From positions 2,085 to 66,084 of the forward strand of contig NW_015173676.1 of assembly GCF_001447785.1 (NCBI RefSeq): DNA of 64,000 nt, written 5' to 3'. The DNA comes from Gekko japonicus (Eukaryota). Shown here piece after piece: positions 16,466 through 57,459 of this stretch (position 1 is its first letter; every line of letters starts with the position of its first letter). The notes under the pieces are model-generated. The model saw only the letters and a list, made by a program, of their open reading frames with translations, searched no databases and was not told the DNA's origin. Position numbers and translations under genes: made by a program.

Positions 16466-16496
16466 GACTCTCCCCTTCTAGTCTCTGCAGAACAAA

Positions 16497-17410
16497 GCAA
16501 GGAGGTCTGGGTATGTAGCCATAGCATCATGCACTGGGCAGGGACCTACATGTTGTCAACCAATTGGAGTGTCTCTTGGGGACTGGATGGGCATCTGCAG
16601 ATTTCCTGGACAGGGCAAAGAGGGATGCTCTGGGACTCTCTTCTTCCAACCCTCTTGTGTGGCATTGCCCATTGGGGCCCTTCAGTGGTTATTCTCATTC
16701 AGCTAGGGGAGAATGATCTGGTGAGCCAAAAAGGGATTGAACTTGCCATCACCATGAAAGCAGTTCTGTGGACACTTTTCTCTCCCCTCCCAGACATGTT
16801 GTTCTTTGGTCAGAATTTCTGGAGAGGTGCAACTGGCAGGGGTTGATGTTGCCAGGAAGAAAGTGAGCAGAGCAGTGGGGCAGTTTGTAGAATCAGCTGG
16901 GGGTGCTGTTATCTATCACCTGCTCTTTTCAGGGCAGGTGGTATCCACCTTGTAGGATGGGGACAGGACATTTGGCTCCATGGGATTTGTGATGCTCTCC
17001 TTTCTTGGCTGAGGCTATAAGAGCTTTGTCAGGAGACAGGCTCTTGTGGCTCTTGTGGTGATTTAGGTCACTGGGCTGAATCCTTTTTGTGGGAAGGCTA
17101 TGTCCGTGAGCCCACCTCCCCCATTTTGGGGACCCCCTTAAAGGGTAAAGTCATGGAGCAGCATTCCCATCACAGGGGCTGTTGCCCTGTCCCACTCCCA
17201 GCATGGGAAGGGAGCCACATAGAGGCTTGTGCTCAGGTGGGACCACTGGACTTGCCACTCCAAGTTTTCTCCCAGCAAGCAGGCTGGGGAGGGGTTCCTT
17301 TGGCTAACAGGTTGGATCTGGAGCTGTAACCTATGCTGTGCCAGTGCTCCTGTGTCATAGTCAATAAGGCTGTAGCATTTTTTACTCTATCCTGTCTCTG
17401 GATTATAGGT
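16497..17410 (+). mobile_element. 3' relic of a DIRS/Ngaro-like YR retroelement: SGNH-hydrolase ORF remnant (16497-17020) and terminal repeat
   Basis: VWVCSHSIMHWA..ISWTGQRGMLWDSLLP..ILIQLGENDL, then after frameshifts VDVARKKVSRAVGQFVESAGGAVIYH..LFRAGGIHL..DIWL..SWLRL*; homologous to the ORF at 54638-55077; terminal caataaggctgtagc motif. Confidence 0.8.
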
Positions 17411-20372: not shown

Positions 20373-21830
20373 CCCCTTCCAGTCTGACTTCCGCTCCGCC
20401 CATGGGACTGAGACGGTGCTGGTCACCCTGGTAGATGATCTCCAGAGACATCTGGATCGAGGTGGTTCGGTGCTGCTGATTCTCCTTGATCTATTGGTAG
20501 TGTTCAATATGGTTGACCATGAGGTGTTAACCCACCGCCTCGCTGATGCTGGGATACAGGGGCTTGCCTTACAATGGCTGGCCTCCTTTCTTCAGGGTTG
20601 GGCACAGAGGGTGGCACTTGGGGGGAGAGTTATCCCAGTGGCACCCACTAGAATGTGGTGTTTCACACGGTGTGATCCTCTCCCCCATCCTGTTTAATAT
20701 CTATATGTGCCCTCTCACCCAGATTATCTGGAGATATGGGCTCGGTTGTCACCAATATGTGGATGACATCCAGCTCTATCTGCTGATGGACGGCTGCCTG
20801 GACATGGCCCCAGGACATCTTGACGAGGTGTTACAGGCCATGGCTGGATGGTTACGACAGAGCCAACTTAAGATAAATCCATCTGAGGTCCTGAACTTGA
20901 GTCAAGAGGGACTGAGTCAGGGGCTCAGGCTCCCAACTTTCGATGGGGCTCCATAGGTGCCTGTGCCAAGTGTGAAGAGTCTGGGGGTGCTCCTGGATAC
21001 CTCCCTTTCAATGGAGGCCCAGGTCACCACCACTGCCAGGTCTGCCTTTTTCTATCTGAGGCAGATCAGACAGTTAGCCCATACCTTGCCCTGTGAGATT
21101 TAGCTACGGTGATCCATGCAATGGTCACTTCCAGGCTAGATTATTGTAACTCTCTCTATGTGGGGCTGCCCTTGACTCTGCTCCAGAAGTTGCAGCTAGT
21201 GCAGAATGCAGCAGAATGCGATGCCTGTGTGGGCTCGTATCCACCCGGTCCTGCGTGAACTGCACTGGCTGCCTATTGAATTCCAAATCTGCTTCAAGGT
21301 GCTGGTGCTTACCTTTAAAGCCCTATACGGCCAGGGGCTAGCATACCTATGAGACTGGCTCTCCCCATATGAGCCCCGGTGGGCACTGAGGTCCTCAAAT
21401 GAACATATTCTACACCCTGGGCCCCAGGGACATCTGACTAGCCTTGACCAGGGCCAGGGCCTTTTCAGCCCTGGCCCCTGCCTGGTGGAATGAGCTCCCG
21501 TGTGAGATCAGGGCCCTGCGGGACTTATCATGGTTCCTCAGGGCCTGCAAGATGGAGCTCTTCCACCAGGCATTTGGCTTAGGCAGCGGACATCCCCCCC
21601 CCCCCAGCTTCTATGGCCTTAGTTCTTCCGGCCCAGCTTTTCGGGCCAATTTTCATCACTGGCCTGATTTTGATTGGTCATTCTGATTGTTTTATGGTTA
21701 CATGGTATTTTATGATAATTATATGTAAATTGTTATCACATTATTTTAAGTGTATTAACTAGTTGTTGTTCACTGCCCTGAGCCCACTTGGGAAGGGCGG
21801 AATATAAATCTAATAAAATAAAATAAAGTT
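20373..21830 (+). mobile_element. younger L2 LINE, 5'-truncated (RT domain to 3' end)
   Basis: HGTETVLVTLVDDL..LLILLDLLVVFNMVDH, GVSHGVILSPILFNIYM..HQYVDDIQLY, RARAFSALAPAWWNELP..LFHQAF; (TAAAA)n tail at 21811-21828. Confidence 0.93.
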
Positions 21831-27867: not shown

Positions 27868-28024
27868 NNNNNNNNNNNNNNNNNNNNNNNNNNNNNNNNN
27901 NNNNNNNNNNNNNNNNNNNNNNNNNNNNNNNNNNNNNNNNNNNNNNNNNNNNNNNNNNNNNNNNNNNNNNNNNNNNNNNNNNNNNNNNNNNNNNNNNNNN
28001 NNNNNNNNNNNNNNNNNNNNNNNN
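27868..28024. other. assembly gap (157 N)
   Basis: Run of n characters. Confidence 1.
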
Positions 28025-37699: not shown

Positions 37700-39469
37700 T
37701 AGCATAAATGAGGTTTATTTTGCCCCTTCTCTTACCAGAGAGCAAAGGGGGCAGATACAAGCCATTCTGTCCAGGTACCAAAAGATTTTCTCCAACTTGC
37801 TGGGTAAAACAAACTTAGCATACCATAAGACTAATACTGGGGATTTGAGGCCTGTGGCACTTCCACCATATAGAGTGACTGGCCCGAATGTCACATATGT
37901 ACAGAGGGAGGTCAAGAAAATGTTAAGCTTAGGACTTATTGTACCCTCTGTAAGTCCTTGGGCCTCACCTGTAGTACTGGTACTGAAGCCTGATAAAACC
38001 ATGACGTTTTGTGTTGATTGTAGGAGATGAAACAAAGTTACTGTACCTGATGTGTACCCCATGCCACGTATAGATGAGTTGGTGGAAACAATTGGGGCTG
38101 CCAATTATATTTCAACTCTAGATCTAACCAAAGGGTATTGGCAGGTGGCAATGGACCCCAAAGATCAGCAAAAGACTGTGTTTGTAACCAAAGAGGGACT
38201 CTTTGAATTTATGGTACTTGCTTTTGGTTTAAGGAACGCACCTGCCACGTTCCAAAGGTTGATAGATAAAATGCTAGTGGGAAAGAAAGAGTTTGCTCTG
38301 GCATATATTGACAACATTGCTATTTACAGTAACACCTGGAATGAACATTTACAACACCTAGCAATTGTCTTTCAAAGAATCAAAGATGCTGGTCTCACCA
38401 TGAAAGCATCCAAGTGTCAACTAGCCATGCAGGAGGTAAAGTATTTGGGACATGTGCTAGGCGGAGGTAAGTGTTGGCATATGAATAGGAATGCCAGCCA
38501 GATGACAGCTGGTCAGGTTCTCAGATTAAAGTGATCCAGTTTGACAGATATATGGTCACTTGATATATCACATGATGGGTGCATTGCATCAGCTTTGTAT
38601 GGAGTCACTCTGACTCAACAATTGTATTGTGATTGGCTGACTGCTGTATATATCCTGCTGTGCATTGACCAACCTACATGGTTACTGATGCCTGGCGTAG
38701 CACTCTGTTGGACTAACAGCCTGTTTGGAAGTGACTACATGGACTGTGTAAATATTTGTACAATAAAACTGTAAATAGCATTATACCAGCACAGTGTCTT
38801 CTGCTTTGTGGTGACGTTCAAACACCGTCAGTAAGATCAAAGCAGATTGGGGAAAGGTTCAAGTTATCCAAGAGTGGCCCAGACTCCAAACAAAAACAAA
38901 TAAGGGCATTTTTAGGAGTTGTGGGATATTGCAGGAGATTTATTCCTGAGTTTAGCACAATTGCTGCACCCTTATGTGAGTGCACCAAGAAGAAATACCC
39001 CGATTTAGTGATGTGGAATGAAGCATGCCAAAAGGCATTTGAACATCTAAAAGCTGTGCTGACAACAGAACCAGTGTTATGCACTCCTGACTTTACTAAA
39101 GAGTTCACCCTATTTACAGATGCATCTAATGTCAGAATAGGTGCAATGTTAAGTCAGAGAAGAGGAGGGACAACATCATCCCATCCTGTATTTAAGTAGA
39201 AAACTTTTAGAAAGAGAACAACACCTCTCAGTGATCGAGAGAGAGTGTTTAACAATTGTATGGTCCATAGATAAGCTGAAACTGTACCTATGGGGGAGAA
39301 AGTTTACTTTGTGTACAGACCACTCCCCACTGAAATGGTTAAGCCAAGTAAAGAGCACAAACAGCAAACCGATTAGATAGAGTTTACAGCTCCAGGATTA
39401 CAATTTAACATCCAGAACATACCAGGGAAGCAAAATGTGATTGCTGATGCATTATCTAGAACAATGTAA
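37700..39469 (+). pseudogene. pol remnant: reverse transcriptase and RNase H (stops, frameshifts, YIDD mutated to YIDN)
   Basis: SVSPWASPVVLVLKPD..FCVD, YPMPRIDEL..STLDLTKGYWQV..FGLRNAPATFQR..YIDNIAIYS..KYLGH, RAFLGVVGY.RRFIP, FTDAS, TDHSPLKWL, NVIADALSRTM*. Confidence 0.92.
38472..38830 (+). mobile_element. solo LTR (359 bp) inserted in the Gypsy pol
   Basis: TG...CA termini; 5-bp TSD gtaag (38467-38471, 38831-38835); TATA-like tatatat near 38646 and aataaa at 38762; removal restores GGGK|IKADWGKV. Confidence 0.92.
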
Positions 39470-52752: not shown

Positions 52753-53779
52753 TGTAGGGGAGAGCTCCACTGAGTCTTCTTCCTCTTGTTTGCAGTTATC
52801 TCCGGTAATGAAGAGAATTTTTTTTAATCGGGTGTATGGATACATCCATACAAAAATGTCTGCACATTCTGCACCATGGTGGAATGCTTCCTCCCCATAC
52901 CAATTATTCTTTAAATTAAAATATTATTGGATAACATATTCCAGATTCTACTGTACATGGAAAATACTGTCTTGATAGTGAGCATTTTGCAAGCCAACAA
53001 CACCAAACCCCACCTGAAGCTTTTCTGTTGCATCTGTTGTTTCTGGTCTTAAAAAAAAAATCATTACAGCCCTCAATAATCCTGCTCCTGTTAGTATAGC
53101 CCAAAATTTTCATCTGTGTGCCTGGGGCTCTTTTTCTTGGTTACAGTGGAGCATGAAACTGAAATGACAGAAACTCAGAACACAGGAAAGTAGTGCATGC
53201 ATGTCTTTTAAGCACGTACATTTCAGAACTGTGATGAAAGTTTATAGTTTCATTCCAGCTACATTCATCTTCCATATCTTTCCAGCATAAATCAAAATCA
53301 TGTGACATGTGCCGCATGTTGTCACTGAACAGTGATAAAACCCTAATGCATAAAAAAACTAGTTTTTCTCCCTGCATTAAAAAAATAAAAACTATGCCTG
53401 GATTTTGAATTAATACTGGAAATCATGCACAATGCTTCTTCCCATGTTACAGTTAAAAAGAAGGGCAGACACTGGACAATTTCTTGCCCTGACTATTCAA
53501 TTGCAATCATTTGCACAGCAGTAAGATCAGCCATTTGCCCCCGCAGCCGGAATAACGAGACGGACAACAGATTTGGATCAAACAAGGGCCACTTTATTAA
53601 CTATATACAATTTATTCTCAGTAACCGGCAAGGGAGCACTTCCAGATAGCGGAGCAGACAGAGCAGGTGTCAAGCTGACCACCCCCCTGTCTGAGATATG
53701 GGCGATGCACCAACCCCGGTCTTGGGCCATTGATCTGGCTTGCGACCAGCAGCCCAGCCACGGGTCGCCTCCCGGGAGC

Positions 53780-54637
53780 GCCTACCCCTGAAACCTTACA
53801 GTTTGCAGAGAGGAGCTTACCCAAGAGGCTCCCGGAGGGGAATCCTCATTCACCACCCAAGACCTTAAAAGCCCGCAGGCCGATCCTGAAGACCCCCCAA
53901 GTTCCCAGAACTCGGGACGGCTTAAGGTGCTCACCATTTCCGCTTCCTTATCTCTGCCATACCCTAATAAAGTGACCAACCTATTTAATACAGCCACGCC
54001 CGTAACCCTTTGTTCCACTGCTCCAGTGCAAGGTTGGCGAAAACACTACCCCCCATTTTGCCAATCTTAGGTGATAGCGAAAAATTCCTACCTGGCCCCT
54101 TTCGGCGACCAGCCTCAGCCTACACTGGATTAAACAGGGCGGGCGGGCGAGCAAACTGCGGCGGACTGAGGTAGGGGGCGGGTGCGGAGCCGAGCCTAGC
54201 CAGGCCGGCTCCACCCCCCCAACGTCCCAGTGCCTACCCCTGAAACCTTACAGTTTGCAGAGAGGAGCTTACCCAAGAGGCTCCCGGAGGGGAATCCTCA
54301 TTCACCACCCGAGGCCTTAAAAGCACGCAGGCCGATCCTGAAGACCCCCCAAGTTCCCAGAACTCGGGACGGCTTAAGGTGCCCACCATTTCAGCTTCCT
54401 TATCTCTGCCATACCCTAATAAAGTGACCAACCTATTTAATACAGCCACGCCCGTAACCCTTTGTTCCACTGCTCCAGTGCAAGGTTGGCGAAAACACTA
54501 CCCCCCATTTTGCCAATCTTAGGTGATAGCGAAAAATTCCTACCTGGCCCCTTTCGGCGACCAGCCTCAGCCTACACTGGATTAAACAGGGCGGGCGGGC
54601 GAGCAAACTGCGGCGGACTGAGGTAGGGGGCGGGTGC
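53780..54637. repeat. 406-bp direct repeat (53780-54185, 54232-54637) with a 46-bp spacer
   Basis: 5 mismatches by eye (53859, 53862, 53873, 53931, 53941); offset 452. Confidence 0.97.
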
Positions 54638-55077
54638 TTACGCCGAGCTCTGTCAATGCATCTGGGATCCCCCAGATTGCACCACACCCGCCGTGGCAGC
54701 ATTGCGGACCAAATGACCTGCACTCTGGGCCATCTCACCCGAATCCGCTTCAGGTCTTCCGTGGCTTGGATAACCAGGGCCTTGCCCTTCATCAAGCCGA
54801 GGTCATTGCCCCCAAGGTGCACCAATAAAACATCAAGCGGCGGCCCATGCCACTCCTCGAACAACAGGGGAAGTAACCTGGGCCAGTGCATGCCCCTCCG
54901 TCCCCACCATTCAATCACTGCCGTCTCACTCAGCCCCAACTGAGAACCAAACGCCGTTCTCTTTGCCCAGTGAGCGGCCCAAAAAATCATACTGTGGCCG
55001 CAGATAACGACTCTCCTCCGCTCCTGCCGGCCCACAGCACCTGCAAAACAAACTGTTTTAGTACGTGCCAGACTCAA
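54638..55077 (-). pseudogene. SGNH/GDSL hydrolase-like ORF, C-terminally truncated
   Basis: Block I VVICGHSMIFWA, block II GRRGM, block III VHLGGNDLG; breaks at DRARRK into the repeat, so the DxxH block V is missing. Confidence 0.85.
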
Positions 55078-55999
55078 AACTTGCTTTGACGCACATACCC
55101 CTTAAAACTGCGAGATCTCCATCGGCCAATGCCCTGTATCTCTTCCCCCGAGTACCCCATGGCGGCCGCCGTGGAAGCAGCTCCAATCCTAAAGGAATGG
55201 GTCCCGAAGCGAAACCCGCCCAGCCCCAATTGGCCCAGCGCCCTTCGCGTCAGCGACCAAAATTGAAATTTTGTGAGTGGGGCCCCGTCCCTGTGTCGAA
55301 ATAATGTGCCAGCCCCCTCCCCTCTGAGACTCAGGTAATGGCGTAAAGCCCTAACTCTTCGGAGCACCGGCCCAGCTTCACCGCCCAGCCTTTTCCCCTT
55401 TGGTCGGTCTTTGACCTGCGGATATTAAGGGCCAAACTATTTTCCATTACCCTAACATCCCCAAACCGTAGTGCTCTGTCAGATGTGTCATTCCGTGAAG
55501 CGGGTACGAGTTCGCTAATACGCAATGCTCCAAAAAAGGCTGTCAATGCGGCCGCATGAAATAAGGCAACCTCATATGTATCTGAACAAATACTGGGCCA
55601 TAACGCCCGCATCCCCTTCAGGACCCCTGGCGACAGTGGCTCTCCGTCGTCCCGTATTTGACCTGCTTCATGGGACCACCCGACCAACATCTTCCTAACC
55701 CGGAAATCTGTCGTCCTGTCCTCCTGCCCAGCTTTCACCGCGAAGGCAAGGGCAGCCATCTTACCCCTTATAGATCGGACCGATAGGCCCTTCCGCCTCA
55801 AATAGACGCAATACTGCATGACCTGGCAAACCGGGATGGGCCACACTTGTTGCAGCCCCACGCTTTTCCTAAAGGTGACAAATTGCTGCCCCGCCATCAA
55901 GTATGTTTTCCGCGTCGAAGGGGCGAGGGCCATGCCTATTGCCCTTTCGGCTTCAAGCCGCCAGTGCGCCAAAAACTGGGAGGCATCCGTACCGGGCAC
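55074..55999 (-). pseudogene. tyrosine recombinase (phage-integrase family), one frameshift near 55345
   Basis: ALAPSTRKTY N-terminal helix; AFFGALRISEL (R), IRRSKTDQ (K), THSFRIGAAS (HxxR), GRWRS (W), KGYVR (Y); all catalytic residues present. Confidence 0.93.
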
Positions 56000-56092
56000 T
56001 CACCTCAAGCAGCTTATAGCAAGGGATGGATAGAAACGGAGTAGTAGCAACCCATCCCATACAGTAGGAGGGAAGGGAGCAAGTGGACATAC

Positions 56093-56265
56093 CCTCCACT
56101 TCTTGTGTTCTCTTGGGCAAGGATAGCGAATGGGGGTGAAGGTGGATCATCACATATGATGTAATGTGGAAACTGGTCAGACCTGATGCTTTTTGAGGAG
56201 CGGTAATGCCTTGGGGAAATGTGACAATTGTAGCACTTCTTTTTAATCATTGTATTGAAAATCTC
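56093..56265 (-). other. candidate exon (173 nt)
   Basis: Acceptor gttcctttacag|G, donor GG|gtatgt; open frame EIFNTMIKKKCYNCHISPRHYRSSKSIRSDQFPHYIICDDPPSPPFAILAQENTRSG; not recognised. Confidence 0.35.
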
Positions 56266-57459
56266 CTGTAAAGGAACATGCATTATCTATGGGAAACAAT
56301 GATGGCCAATGTGATAGAGTATGAAGACAAGCTGTATGCAAACAATGTCAGACTTTTTAACTTTATAGCTGATTAGTATAAATGTAACTAGCCTTGAAAT
56401 GGGAGGGGAAGAAGTTCAAAAATGTTTTTATTATTCCCATTCTAATGCTGTGGCTGTCTTCAATCATGTATTAGTGCCTAATCAAAAGGTATTGTATTTC
56501 ATTTAGTCTAATTTCAACTGCTGTTTGTTGTGCTGCCTACCTTGTTCCAGCTCATCATAGGATTAGATGACTCATTGGGCACACAGACAATCATCTTGGT
56601 ATTCAGAACAATGCCTTTTCCTTGAGACATTTCTCACCCACGTACAAAAGCAGAGTGCTACTCACAATTAGCATTTAACATAATTAAAACCATGCTGTTG
56701 CAAATAGCAATCGGTGGCATTTTTTAAGCTGCAAAATACTATACTGTGTGCCTTAATTGTTTTTATTGTAAATATTGTGCTCCTTAATTCACAAGGATCT
56801 ATAACATGTTGGCAGCAAGAAACCAGTCAGTGGTAATTACCTATATTTTAAAATATCTTGTGGGTCACATAACCTGCTGGGTTTATATCCATACTGTTTT
56901 ACTCATTAAATAAATGAAACAAGATTCCAAAAATATTCGTTTGAAGACAGCAGTGATATTAGCTATTTTTCCAAAGGATCAAGGACACATGCTACATATA
57001 AGGGAATGTATTTTAAACTTTCTGTTATTTGCCAACAGTGCTCATTGCATCTTATTGGAAATCTACAACATCACCATTACTACACATAGTGGGTCCATAT
57101 TCTCATGGGGAAAACATGCATCAGATATGTCAAAGAAATGGATAAGCAAGGATATTTTCTTATCAGGATTGCTTCCTGGTCTTTGTGGGCCACTCTTCCC
57201 AAACCTCATCACCATCATACATCGTAGGAATGAATTTGCATTGGAACTGCTCTTCTTGTTGGAATTTTATTTCTTCTTTGATATATCATAATTCACTTAG
57301 TATGTGTATGTCTGATAATCTTCTTTTCATTTCATATACCCTATCTCTCCTTTATTTTAAGTTTTCATTTTTACTGTATTGTTCTCACTTACATTGGGTT
57401 TCTTATGCTGTTATGCATAGCAGGAGGCTTCTGCTGTATCAGGTTGTGAAGTTGGGATG

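What the first reader, a model, noticed from the sequence alone, without database searches (positions are those of the whole stretch)
53533..56000. Tyrosine-recombinase retroelement carrying an SGNH-hydrolase cargo gene
Seen: tightly overlapping ORFs in the order pol tail, YR (complete R-K-HxxR-W-Y set, one frameshift), SGNH hydrolase, followed by direct repeats and a polyA-signal-bearing terminus; no TSD; abundant CpGs suggest recent activity. Established: Ngaro-type YR retrotransposons have split direct repeats and integrate without TSDs; some vertebrate members carry a hydrolase ORF; SGNH esterases also occur in ORF1 of some LINEs, where lipid or membrane binding has been proposed. To my knowledge its role in YR elements is uncharacterised. 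Inference: this is the best candidate in the window for a poorly described system, a recombinase-integrating retroelement whose accessory esterase may act in particle or membrane trafficking or in host evasion.
Basis: partly seen in the sequence, partly recalled or inferred. Interest (0 to 1): 0.75.

Follow-up and report, generated by a model that had tools for sequence, protein, structure and literature searches.

The report
Broken lizard Ngaro retrotransposon, spliced esterase
This is a dead fragment of a known kind of jumping gene in a lizard genome, but its relatives suggest that the element makes its recombinase and its puzzling esterase by splicing both onto the front end of its capsid-like protein, which gives a way to test what the esterase is for.

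Summary
The element is real (minus strand, about 56005 to 53534): pol tail, tyrosine recombinase (YR), SGNH hydrolase, 3' tail. It is a dead, 5'-truncated Ngaro-like retrotransposon. An SGNH ORF after YR is already described for amphibian Ngaro elements, with function unproven. The 406-bp direct repeats are not an intact B1-A2-B2 set. The TSD question cannot be tested here. The copy is young but there is no sign of a current burst. What is new comes from relatives: annotated lizard proteins carry one basic, two-helix ORF1 (gag) leader joined at the same residue to YR, to SGNH, or (unspliced) to the rest of gag. 5 of 12 YR models have such an SGNH partner. A phase-1 acceptor sits at 55041/55040, where SGNH homology starts. 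The leader-esterase would mirror the ORF1p of the ZfL2-1 LINE (basic motif, coiled coil, esterase), which binds lipid. This rests on gene models and DNA signals; I saw no junction reads. I found no account of this splicing in the papers I could search, but the key reviews were not held.

The parts
53534..56005 (-). Whole remaining copy of a Ngaro-like YR retrotransposon (5' end lost; 5' junction inferred at about 56000-56010)
   Evidence: CpG o/e 0.70 vs 0.19; read-depth step and loose ends; homology limits
55936..56004 (-). Last ~22 codons of pol (end of the RNase H region), overlapping the YR start; no MT domain follows
   Evidence: Conserved Trp 44 nt before the YR LAP motif, the same as in L004, whose pol has RVT_1 E 1.4e-12
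55355..55999 (-). YR 5' part: SAM-like domain, catalytic R (55522) and K (55411); its own inferred acceptor (~56037) is lost
   Evidence: Pfam SAM domains E 0.01-0.02, under cut-off; 41-55% identity to 15 squamate proteins, 31% to one more
55074..55364 (-). YR 3' part in another frame: H-x-x-R (55199, 55190), W (55121), Y (55097), stop 55074-55076; frame break at 55355-55364
   Evidence: Pfam Phage_integrase E 4.3e-5, under cut-off
55041..55073 (-). 33-nt gap between the YR stop and the SGNH exon, ending in a phase-1 CAG acceptor (intron ends 55041, exon starts 55040)
   Evidence: Relatives' matches begin at 55041-55044; no in-frame Met in the 36 open codons before the Ser; tract only 53% pyrimidine, fails my strict test
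54637..55040 (-). SGNH hydrolase exon, truncated: Ser 54993, Gly 54894, Asn 54807 present; Asp-x-x-His block absent
   Evidence: Up to 70% identity to relatives; alignment
54229..54637 (-). Extra copy of 3' non-coding sequence standing where the SGNH C-terminus should be; a 7-nt word shared with the native context lies just before the junction
54186..54228 (-). Spacer between the repeats with a strong hairpin; may be the last SGNH codons (not shown)
   Evidence: 54160-54235 folds at z -2.87, 1 of 200 shuffles as good; tail-profile test ranked it 6th of 1092 positions, inconclusive
53777..54185 (-). Native copy of the 3' non-coding repeat, joined to the terminal tail
   Evidence: 4 WGS reads of other copies join tail to repeat sequence (joint 53758-54229)
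53534..53776 (-). Terminal tail with two AATAAA and the family 3' end; part of a block (53527-53848) with roughly 160-230 like copies in the genome
   Evidence: Depth 117-141 vs flank 0.55

Best explanation
The window holds a dead, 5'-truncated and internally rearranged copy of a squamate Ngaro-like retrotransposon (shown). The intact family has gag, RT/RNase H, YR and SGNH (shown in a distant relative, inferred for this family). It makes YR and SGNH from spliced subgenomic mRNAs (inferred from gene models and DNA signals). One phase-1 donor about 120-230 codons into gag is joined either to an acceptor at the end of pol (leader-YR) or to an acceptor just after the YR stop (leader-SGNH); unspliced RNA gives gag and is the genome. 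The shared leader has a Lys-rich start, an acidic patch and two amphipathic helices. It would act as a common tag that brings recombinase and esterase into the gag particle and perhaps the nucleus (inferred). The esterase is an active Ser-His-Asp SGNH enzyme in intact copies (motifs shown, activity not). Its most likely role is that proposed for the ZfL2-1 ORF1p esterase: binding and slowly hydrolysing membrane lipid during RNP assembly, transport or release (analogy only, about 0.45). This copy can make neither protein.
For: The same leader runs to the same residue in three annotated Eublepharis proteins: LOC129341561 X1 (YR), X2 (gag-like, going on with G-K-S, which fits G|GTAAGT) and LOC129340933 (SGNH, 99% identical over residues 1-135). 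The gag-like isoform matches ORF1 of RT-bearing L004 at E 2.75e-13. 5 of 12 YR models (Eublepharis, two Anolis, two Hemicordylus) share a leader with an SGNH protein up to the same point, and the junction residue is G or D in every case, as a split G|NN codon requires. A profile built from YR leaders alone hits 18 of 110 SGNH N-terminal extensions at E<1e-3, against 0 in each of 20 shuffles. A phase-1 YAG lies 20-59 nt before the catalytic Ser in 6 of 6 DNA copies examined (chance 0.32-0.44 each); 4 of 6 pass a strict tract test (chance about 0.11). The L004 YR acceptor is also phase 1. Catalytic conservation among 161 relatives: S 138 of 142 covered, G 146 of 157, N 147 of 158, D 133 of 143, H 123 of 140; median column 0.43. 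Model of a natural leader-SGNH protein: SGNH fold, Z 19.9 to PAF acetylhydrolase (rmsd 2.9, 174 aligned), two leader helices with conserved hydrophobic spacing. Closest solved sequence 4C1B. ZfL2-1 ORF1p has an Arg-rich motif, a coiled coil and an esterase starting at residue 136, and binds liposomes (PMC3905857).
Against: No spliced read was seen: the leader is not in the window and the loose-end table was cut. The isoforms are database gene models whose RNA support I could not see. The window's own acceptor and that of L002 fail the strict tract test. 3 of 6 DNA copies (L003-L005) have an in-frame Met 16-31 codons before the Ser, so they could start without splicing. 7 of 12 YR models have no partner that breaks at the same residue, and 92 of 110 SGNH extensions do not match the leader profile. 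Only one gag isoform shows the donor, and only at protein level; L002 gag has no strong phase-1 donor in its first 100 codons. The leader helices are modelled at only moderate confidence (pLDDT 62-82 by block). The fold is as close to the non-catalytic OSK domain of Oskar (Z 17.0) and to carbohydrate esterases as to lipid enzymes, so the substrate is open.
Confidence: 0.72

Rival explanations
1. Same element, but YR and SGNH are translated from the unspliced RNA by re-initiation, internal starts or frameshifting; the leader fusions are artefacts of gene prediction.
For: In-frame Met before the Ser in 3 of 6 DNA copies. Gene predictors do chain Ngaro exons to unrelated genes, for example V2R-YR models and proteins with up to 6 SGNH domains. 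Papers describe the ORFs only as overlapping.
Against: Matching break points with G/D junction residues in 5 pairs from three lizard families. No Met in the window copy. Phase-1 acceptors in distant relatives from metagenome contigs.
Confidence: 0.15
2. Splicing is right, but the SGNH domain works on RNA or on acetylated proteins or glycans rather than lipid, for example as an Oskar-OSK-like RNA-binding module or a deacetylase that counters host silencing.
For: Fold match to the OSK domain (Z 17.0) and to sialate and carbohydrate acetylesterases (Z 17-19) is close to that for PAF-AH (Z 19.9). Related SGNH domains are fused to cold-shock domains in 8 of 20 long proteins scanned.
Against: The catalytic triad is conserved, whereas Oskar's domain is non-catalytic. 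The ZfL2-1 esterase bound lipids, did not bind oligo-A RNA, and showed no activity in a deacetylation kit (PMC3905857).
Confidence: 0.25
3. The two 406-bp repeats are remnants of the Ngaro B1 and B2 repeats after two deletions, rather than a local forward-and-back template switch.
For: 98.8% identity, and position 3' of the last ORF; Ngaro repeats are near-identical at insertion (PMC6681497). Both readings need two junctions.
Against: B would be about 690 bp, against 152 bp in Xenopus DIRS-53_XT. The first copy starts inside the SGNH coding frame at a short shared word. Short tandem duplications are common in this region of relatives (L003-L005).
Confidence: 0.3
4. A Crypton-like DNA transposon with YR and SGNH but no RT.
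For: No RT, RNase H or gag match near the element.
Against: The pol tail is in exact register with RT-bearing L004; polyA signals; architecture equals Xenopus Ngaro.
Confidence: 0.03

Closest known systems
Ngaro-like retrotransposons of Xenopus, DIRS-53_XT and DIRS-54_XT (PMC9210276; parts 2-3 of 5 and passages read)
   Same: Order gag, RT/RH, YR, SGNH; no MT domain; hydrolase of unproven function.
   Different: This copy lacks gag, RT/RH and A1, has a broken YR and a truncated SGNH, and shows no A/B repeat set. The paper has no occurrence of 'splic' or 'intron'.
ZfL2-1 LINE ORF1p esterase (PMC3905857, passages read; PDB 4C1B, link recalled)
   Same: Basic N-terminus, helical segment, linker, then SGNH esterase from about residue 136-146; closest solved sequence, E 1.5e-10.
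   Different: There it is the unspliced ORF1 and stands in for gag. Here it would be a spliced side product sharing the gag leader with the recombinase; different class of element.
Cafeteria burkhardae Ngaro types 1-4 (PMC8547959, section 11 read)
   Same: YR retrotransposons with many solo terminal repeats, as the 160-230 vs 5-7 copy contrast here suggests. There ORF1 appears to set integration site specificity, which a gag-leader-YR fusion would explain (my inference).
   Different: Protist elements with full A1/B1A2B2 repeats; no hydrolase and no splicing mentioned.
GDSL/SGNH ORF3 of bdelloid Vesta LTR retrotransposons and Athena elements (PMC5408684, passages read)
   Same: Accessory SGNH ORF downstream of pol with catalytic residues intact; membrane role proposed, untested.
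   Different: DDE-integrase or Penelope-like elements; relationship to the Ngaro SGNH not tested here.

Membership tests
Ngaro-like YR retrotransposons | Tyrosine recombinase with R-K-HxxR-H/W-Y | tested here: met
   All six residues present but split by a frame break
Ngaro-like YR retrotransposons | RT/RNase H ORF upstream of and overlapping YR | tested here: inconclusive
   Only a ~22-codon tail remains, in exact register with L004, which has RVT_1 E 1.4e-12; no full copy of this family was reachable
Ngaro-like YR retrotransposons | No methyltransferase domain after RNase H | tested here: met
   The pol frame stops 11 codons after the conserved Trp; L004 pol has no MT hit
Ngaro-like YR retrotransposons | SGNH hydrolase ORF after YR (described for amphibian members) | tested here: met
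   Present though truncated; whole in L004
Ngaro-like YR retrotransposons | Split direct repeats A1...B1-A2-B2 | tested here: inconclusive
   No such set in this copy: the terminal 243 bp has no partner. But the copy is broken where A1 and B1 would lie, and no clear set could be read from L004 either
Ngaro-like YR retrotransposons | Integration without target-site duplication | tested here: inconclusive
   Longest word shared by the two junction regions is 5 nt and does not abut them; 5' end is a secondary break; no empty site listed
Ngaro-like YR retrotransposons | RT groups with Ngaro in a tree against DIRS and PAT references | not testable with these tools
   No RT in the copy and no labelled reference elements at hand; the YR and SGNH trees hold only unlabelled or species-named relatives
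DIRS-like elements | MT domain; inverted terminal repeats with an internal complementary region | tested here: not met
   No MT (above); reverse complement of the tail finds no partner, 34 of 300 shuffles as good
Crypton DNA transposons | YR without any RT/RNase H | tested here: not met
   pol tail in register with an RT-bearing relative
Catalytic SGNH hydrolases (this copy) | Ser, Gly, Asn and Asp-x-x-His blocks | tested here: not met
   S, G, N present; block V lost at 54637
Catalytic SGNH hydrolases (intact relatives) | Four blocks and flavodoxin-like SGNH fold | tested here: met
   Residue counts; model matches PAF-AH 1bwp at Z 19.9, rmsd 2.9, 174 aligned; activity not testable

The most novel reading that the evidence does not exclude
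Animal Ngaro elements are spliced retrotransposons with a retrovirus-like expression plan. One gag 5' exon is fused by alternative splicing to the tyrosine recombinase and to an SGNH esterase. The esterase product converges on the basic-motif/coiled-coil/esterase ORF1p of LINEs, the recombinase carries a gag-derived targeting leader, and the ready-made phase-1 SGNH exon has been taken into host-like cold-shock-domain proteins.
Probability: 0.55. Interest if true: 0.65.

Novelty: new member of a known kind. Interest (0 to 1): 0.45.

Why it matters
The copy itself is ordinary dead repeat DNA, and the gene order is published. Two questions stand open in the papers I read: what the Ngaro hydrolase does ('no proven function', PMC9210276), and how ORF1 could set integration site specificity (PMC8547959). 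A third, how the downstream overlapping ORFs get translated, is my own. A shared, spliced gag leader would address all three with one mechanism. It names the real protein products to study (leader-YR, leader-SGNH), and it can be checked at once with existing lizard or frog RNA-seq. It also warns that such elements are being annotated as multi-isoform host genes.

Tried and rejected
No whole genome is held, so no full-length copy of this family could be recovered. IMG/VR scans gave no SGNH relative (0 of 54 pattern matches) and one distant YR (1 of 3). The long SGNH proteins were scanned as possible gag-pol-YR read-throughs: 0 of 20 had an RT or YR hit. Accessions and cluster members of the isoform models could not be looked up. 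Profile test of the spacer as the SGNH tail: inconclusive, rank 6 of 1092 (the script failed before its background count). A diverged B1 or an inverted partner for the tail: none. Rfam: nothing inside the element; the single weak hit (E 0.26) lies in the flank. Complex prediction of two leader copies: no answer, score 0.06 against a mark of 0.32. ESM Atlas: the gag isoform's nearest clusters are unnamed, mostly mollusc; leader alone, no usable hit. No RNA holder was listed. RNA runs laid: X5 gave 363 reads, 288 of them only 90-95% alike, on both strands, none on the flanks; X7 gave 10 reads. These show family transcripts, not this locus. Horizontal transfer: rejected for lack of any near-identical cross-species match; the YR's place in the tree is unresolved. 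L001 and L006-L008 were left out of the acceptor count (YR only, or SGNH start not located). A dN/dS test was not possible without close DNA copies. A literature search for cold-shock-SGNH fusions found 0 papers.
Full report
1. What is there. On the minus strand from about 56005 to 53534 lies a GC- and CpG-rich insert (132 CpG, o/e 0.70, against 0.19 in the rest of the window). It holds the last ~22 codons of pol (56004-55936), a tyrosine recombinase in two frames, an SGNH hydrolase frame and a 3' non-coding region. Pfam sees the YR and SGNH only under their cut-offs. Relatives are clear: 21 of 60 candidates for the SGNH (best 70%) and 16 of 2016 for the YR (best 55%). All named ones are from lizards and snakes, so the host is a squamate, probably a gecko (inference). 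All YR catalytic residues are present, but a break at 55355-55364 separates R and K from HxxR, W and Y. The pol tail is short, yet its conserved Trp lies 44 nt before the YR LAP motif, exactly as in L004. L004 is a near-complete relative from a metagenome with gag, RT/RNase H (RVT_1 E 1.4e-12), YR and a whole SGNH.

2. The SGNH frame matches relatives only to about 54637 and then runs into repeat sequence. The catalytic Asp-x-x-His block, present in 13 of 20 aligned relatives, is gone. The direct repeats (406 bp, 5 differences) are 43-46 bp apart and end 243 bp before the family terminus. That terminus is fixed at 53534/53535 by 58 and 50 WGS reads running into unlike flanks. The terminal 243 bp has no second copy, direct or inverted. 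So the A1/B1-A2-B2 plan that defines Ngaro is not visible here. I read the repeats as a local rearrangement: a jump forward out of SGNH at a shared 7-nt word, then a jump back. Remnants of B1 and B2 remain possible (0.3). The absence of a TSD says nothing, because the 5' end is a break in coding sequence.

3. Age and abundance. WGS depth over flank (0.55) gives roughly 160-230 like copies of the last 320 bp, 19-27 of SGNH and 5-7 of YR at 90% identity or better (the lower figures assume a genome of about 2.4 Gb, recalled). That fits many solo or truncated ends, as reported for Cafeteria Ngaro. Of 905 reads, 699 are 90-95% alike and 42 are 99% or more, with 18-26 expected from this locus. Contigs of another run cross both junctions. 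The copy is therefore young enough to keep its CpGs, is shared between samples, and is dead. RNA reads show family transcripts, not this locus.

4. The lead from relatives. The annotated YR proteins begin with 120-230 residues that are not YR, and some SGNH proteins begin with the same kind of sequence. A search with that leader returned four Eublepharis proteins. LOC129341561 X1 is leader plus YR, X2 is leader plus a gag-like protein ending in Cys/His knuckles, and LOC129340933 is leader plus SGNH. All three diverge after the same residue; the gag form goes on with G-K-S, which fits a G|GTAAGT donor (codon reading inferred). The gag form matches ORF1 of L004 at E 2.75e-13. More widely, 5 of 12 YR models share a leader with an SGNH protein up to the same point, in three lizard families, always with G or D at the junction. 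A profile of YR leaders hits 18 of 110 SGNH extensions and none in 20 shuffles. In DNA, 6 of 6 SGNH starts examined have a phase-1 YAG 20-59 nt before the catalytic Ser (chance 0.32-0.44 each); 4 of 6 pass a strict tract test (chance about 0.11). The window's site, at 55041/55040, is where homology starts and has no in-frame Met upstream, but it fails the strict test. Three of the six copies do have a Met that could serve instead. The L004 YR acceptor is phase 1 too; the matching site here (~56037) is just outside the surviving piece. I saw no junction read, and the models' RNA support could not be looked up.

5. What the esterase may do. Among 161 relatives the catalytic residues are far better kept than the median column (S 138 of 142, N 147 of 158, D 133 of 143, H 123 of 140; median 0.43). 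This argues against neutral decay. A model of a natural leader-SGNH protein has a confident SGNH fold and two less certain leader helices with conserved hydrophobic spacing after a Lys-rich start. Fold matches are PAF acetylhydrolase (Z 19.9), many acetylesterases and the OSK domain (Z 17.0); they do not name a substrate. The closest solved sequence is 4C1B (E 1.5e-10), from recall the ZfL2-1 esterase. That protein has an Arg-rich motif, a dimeric coiled coil and an esterase from residue 136, turns over slowly and binds acidic phospholipids (PMC3905857). The spliced Ngaro product would have the same layout. My reading: the leader loads YR and SGNH onto gag particles, and the esterase acts at membranes during assembly, transport or release. 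Shown: anatomy, breaks, motif conservation, fold. Inferred: splicing (about 0.8), shared-tag function (about 0.5), lipid role (about 0.45).

6. What is known. An SGNH ORF after YR in amphibian Ngaro elements is published, with 'no proven function' (PMC9210276; also mentioned in PMC6681497 and PMC7192593). Its presence in squamates and in invertebrate-like metagenome contigs widens the range given there. For splicing I ran five searches and term look-ups in PMC9210276, PMC8547959, PMC3783388, PMC3266345, PMC6681497, PMC4157794, PMC12477816, PMC9341512, PMC7192593 and PMC4495291. None describes it for Ngaro. What I saw of each paper: parts 2-3 of 5 and passages of PMC9210276; section 11 and passages of PMC8547959; passages only of the others, and of PMC5408684, PMC3905857 and PMC4021074; no supplements, and Table S2 of PMC9210276 may bear on ORF starts. 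[quoted passage not shown] Two earlier AI notes of this scan report spliced Ngaro elements in other genomes. I had formed the idea before seeing them, and they are not independent support.

7. Verdict. A broken member of a known kind by coding anatomy; the repeat anatomy and RT tree could not be settled. As an object it is ordinary and less intact than first read. Its value is the pointer to a spliced gag-leader/esterase and gag-leader/recombinase plan that existing RNA-seq can test. Interest 0.45; novel case 0.55 likely, worth 0.65 if true.

Noticed in passing
window 16481-17017 (+): A second, much older Ngaro-type SGNH fragment of another lineage (24-48% identity to the first 21 relatives, CpG o/e 0.02, stops and frameshift). 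It also has phase-1 YAG sites before block I.
   Followed up: partly
proteins P0081, P0095, P0100, P0106, P0108, P0109, P0123, P0125, P0134: Long proteins with cold-shock domains and a C-terminal Ngaro-type SGNH. The five put in the tree, with P0021, form a starred clade with short branches, as a domesticated host gene would. One literature search found nothing.
   Followed up: partly
proteins P0041, P0049, P0061, P0064, P0168: Proteins with 3-6 SGNH domains in a row: either real multi-domain genes or gene models chaining acceptor-bearing SGNH exons of neighbouring copies.
   Followed up: no
proteins P0030, P0035, P0036: Gecko vomeronasal receptor (V2R) gene models with a Ngaro YR piece fused in, probably misannotated insertions.
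   Followed up: no
window 55355-55356: Contigs of run X1 at single-copy depth break here with about 10 extra letters, so the YR frame break may be absent from that allele or from a close copy.
   Followed up: no
window 55972-57200: The X1 contig crossing the 5' junction has 14 gap positions relative to the window; their place was not shown.
   Followed up: no
window 53534: In RNA run X5, 34 reads run past the 3' end into a mostly shared sequence (agreement 0.70): either one expressed locus or a B1-A2 junction.
   Followed up: no
L002 1-3045; L003 925-1150; L004 4289-4515; L005 2663-2847: L002 runs SGNH, 3' region, then gag and the start of pol (tandem copy, circle junction or collapsed assembly). 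L003-L005 carry short tandem repeats in the 3' non-coding region.
   Followed up: no
window 38031-39196 and 20531-20953 (+): RT with RNase H (LTR-type by its Pfam families) and a separate RT fragment; neither matched L004 pol significantly.
   Followed up: no
window 27868-28024: Assembly gap (run of N).
   Followed up: no
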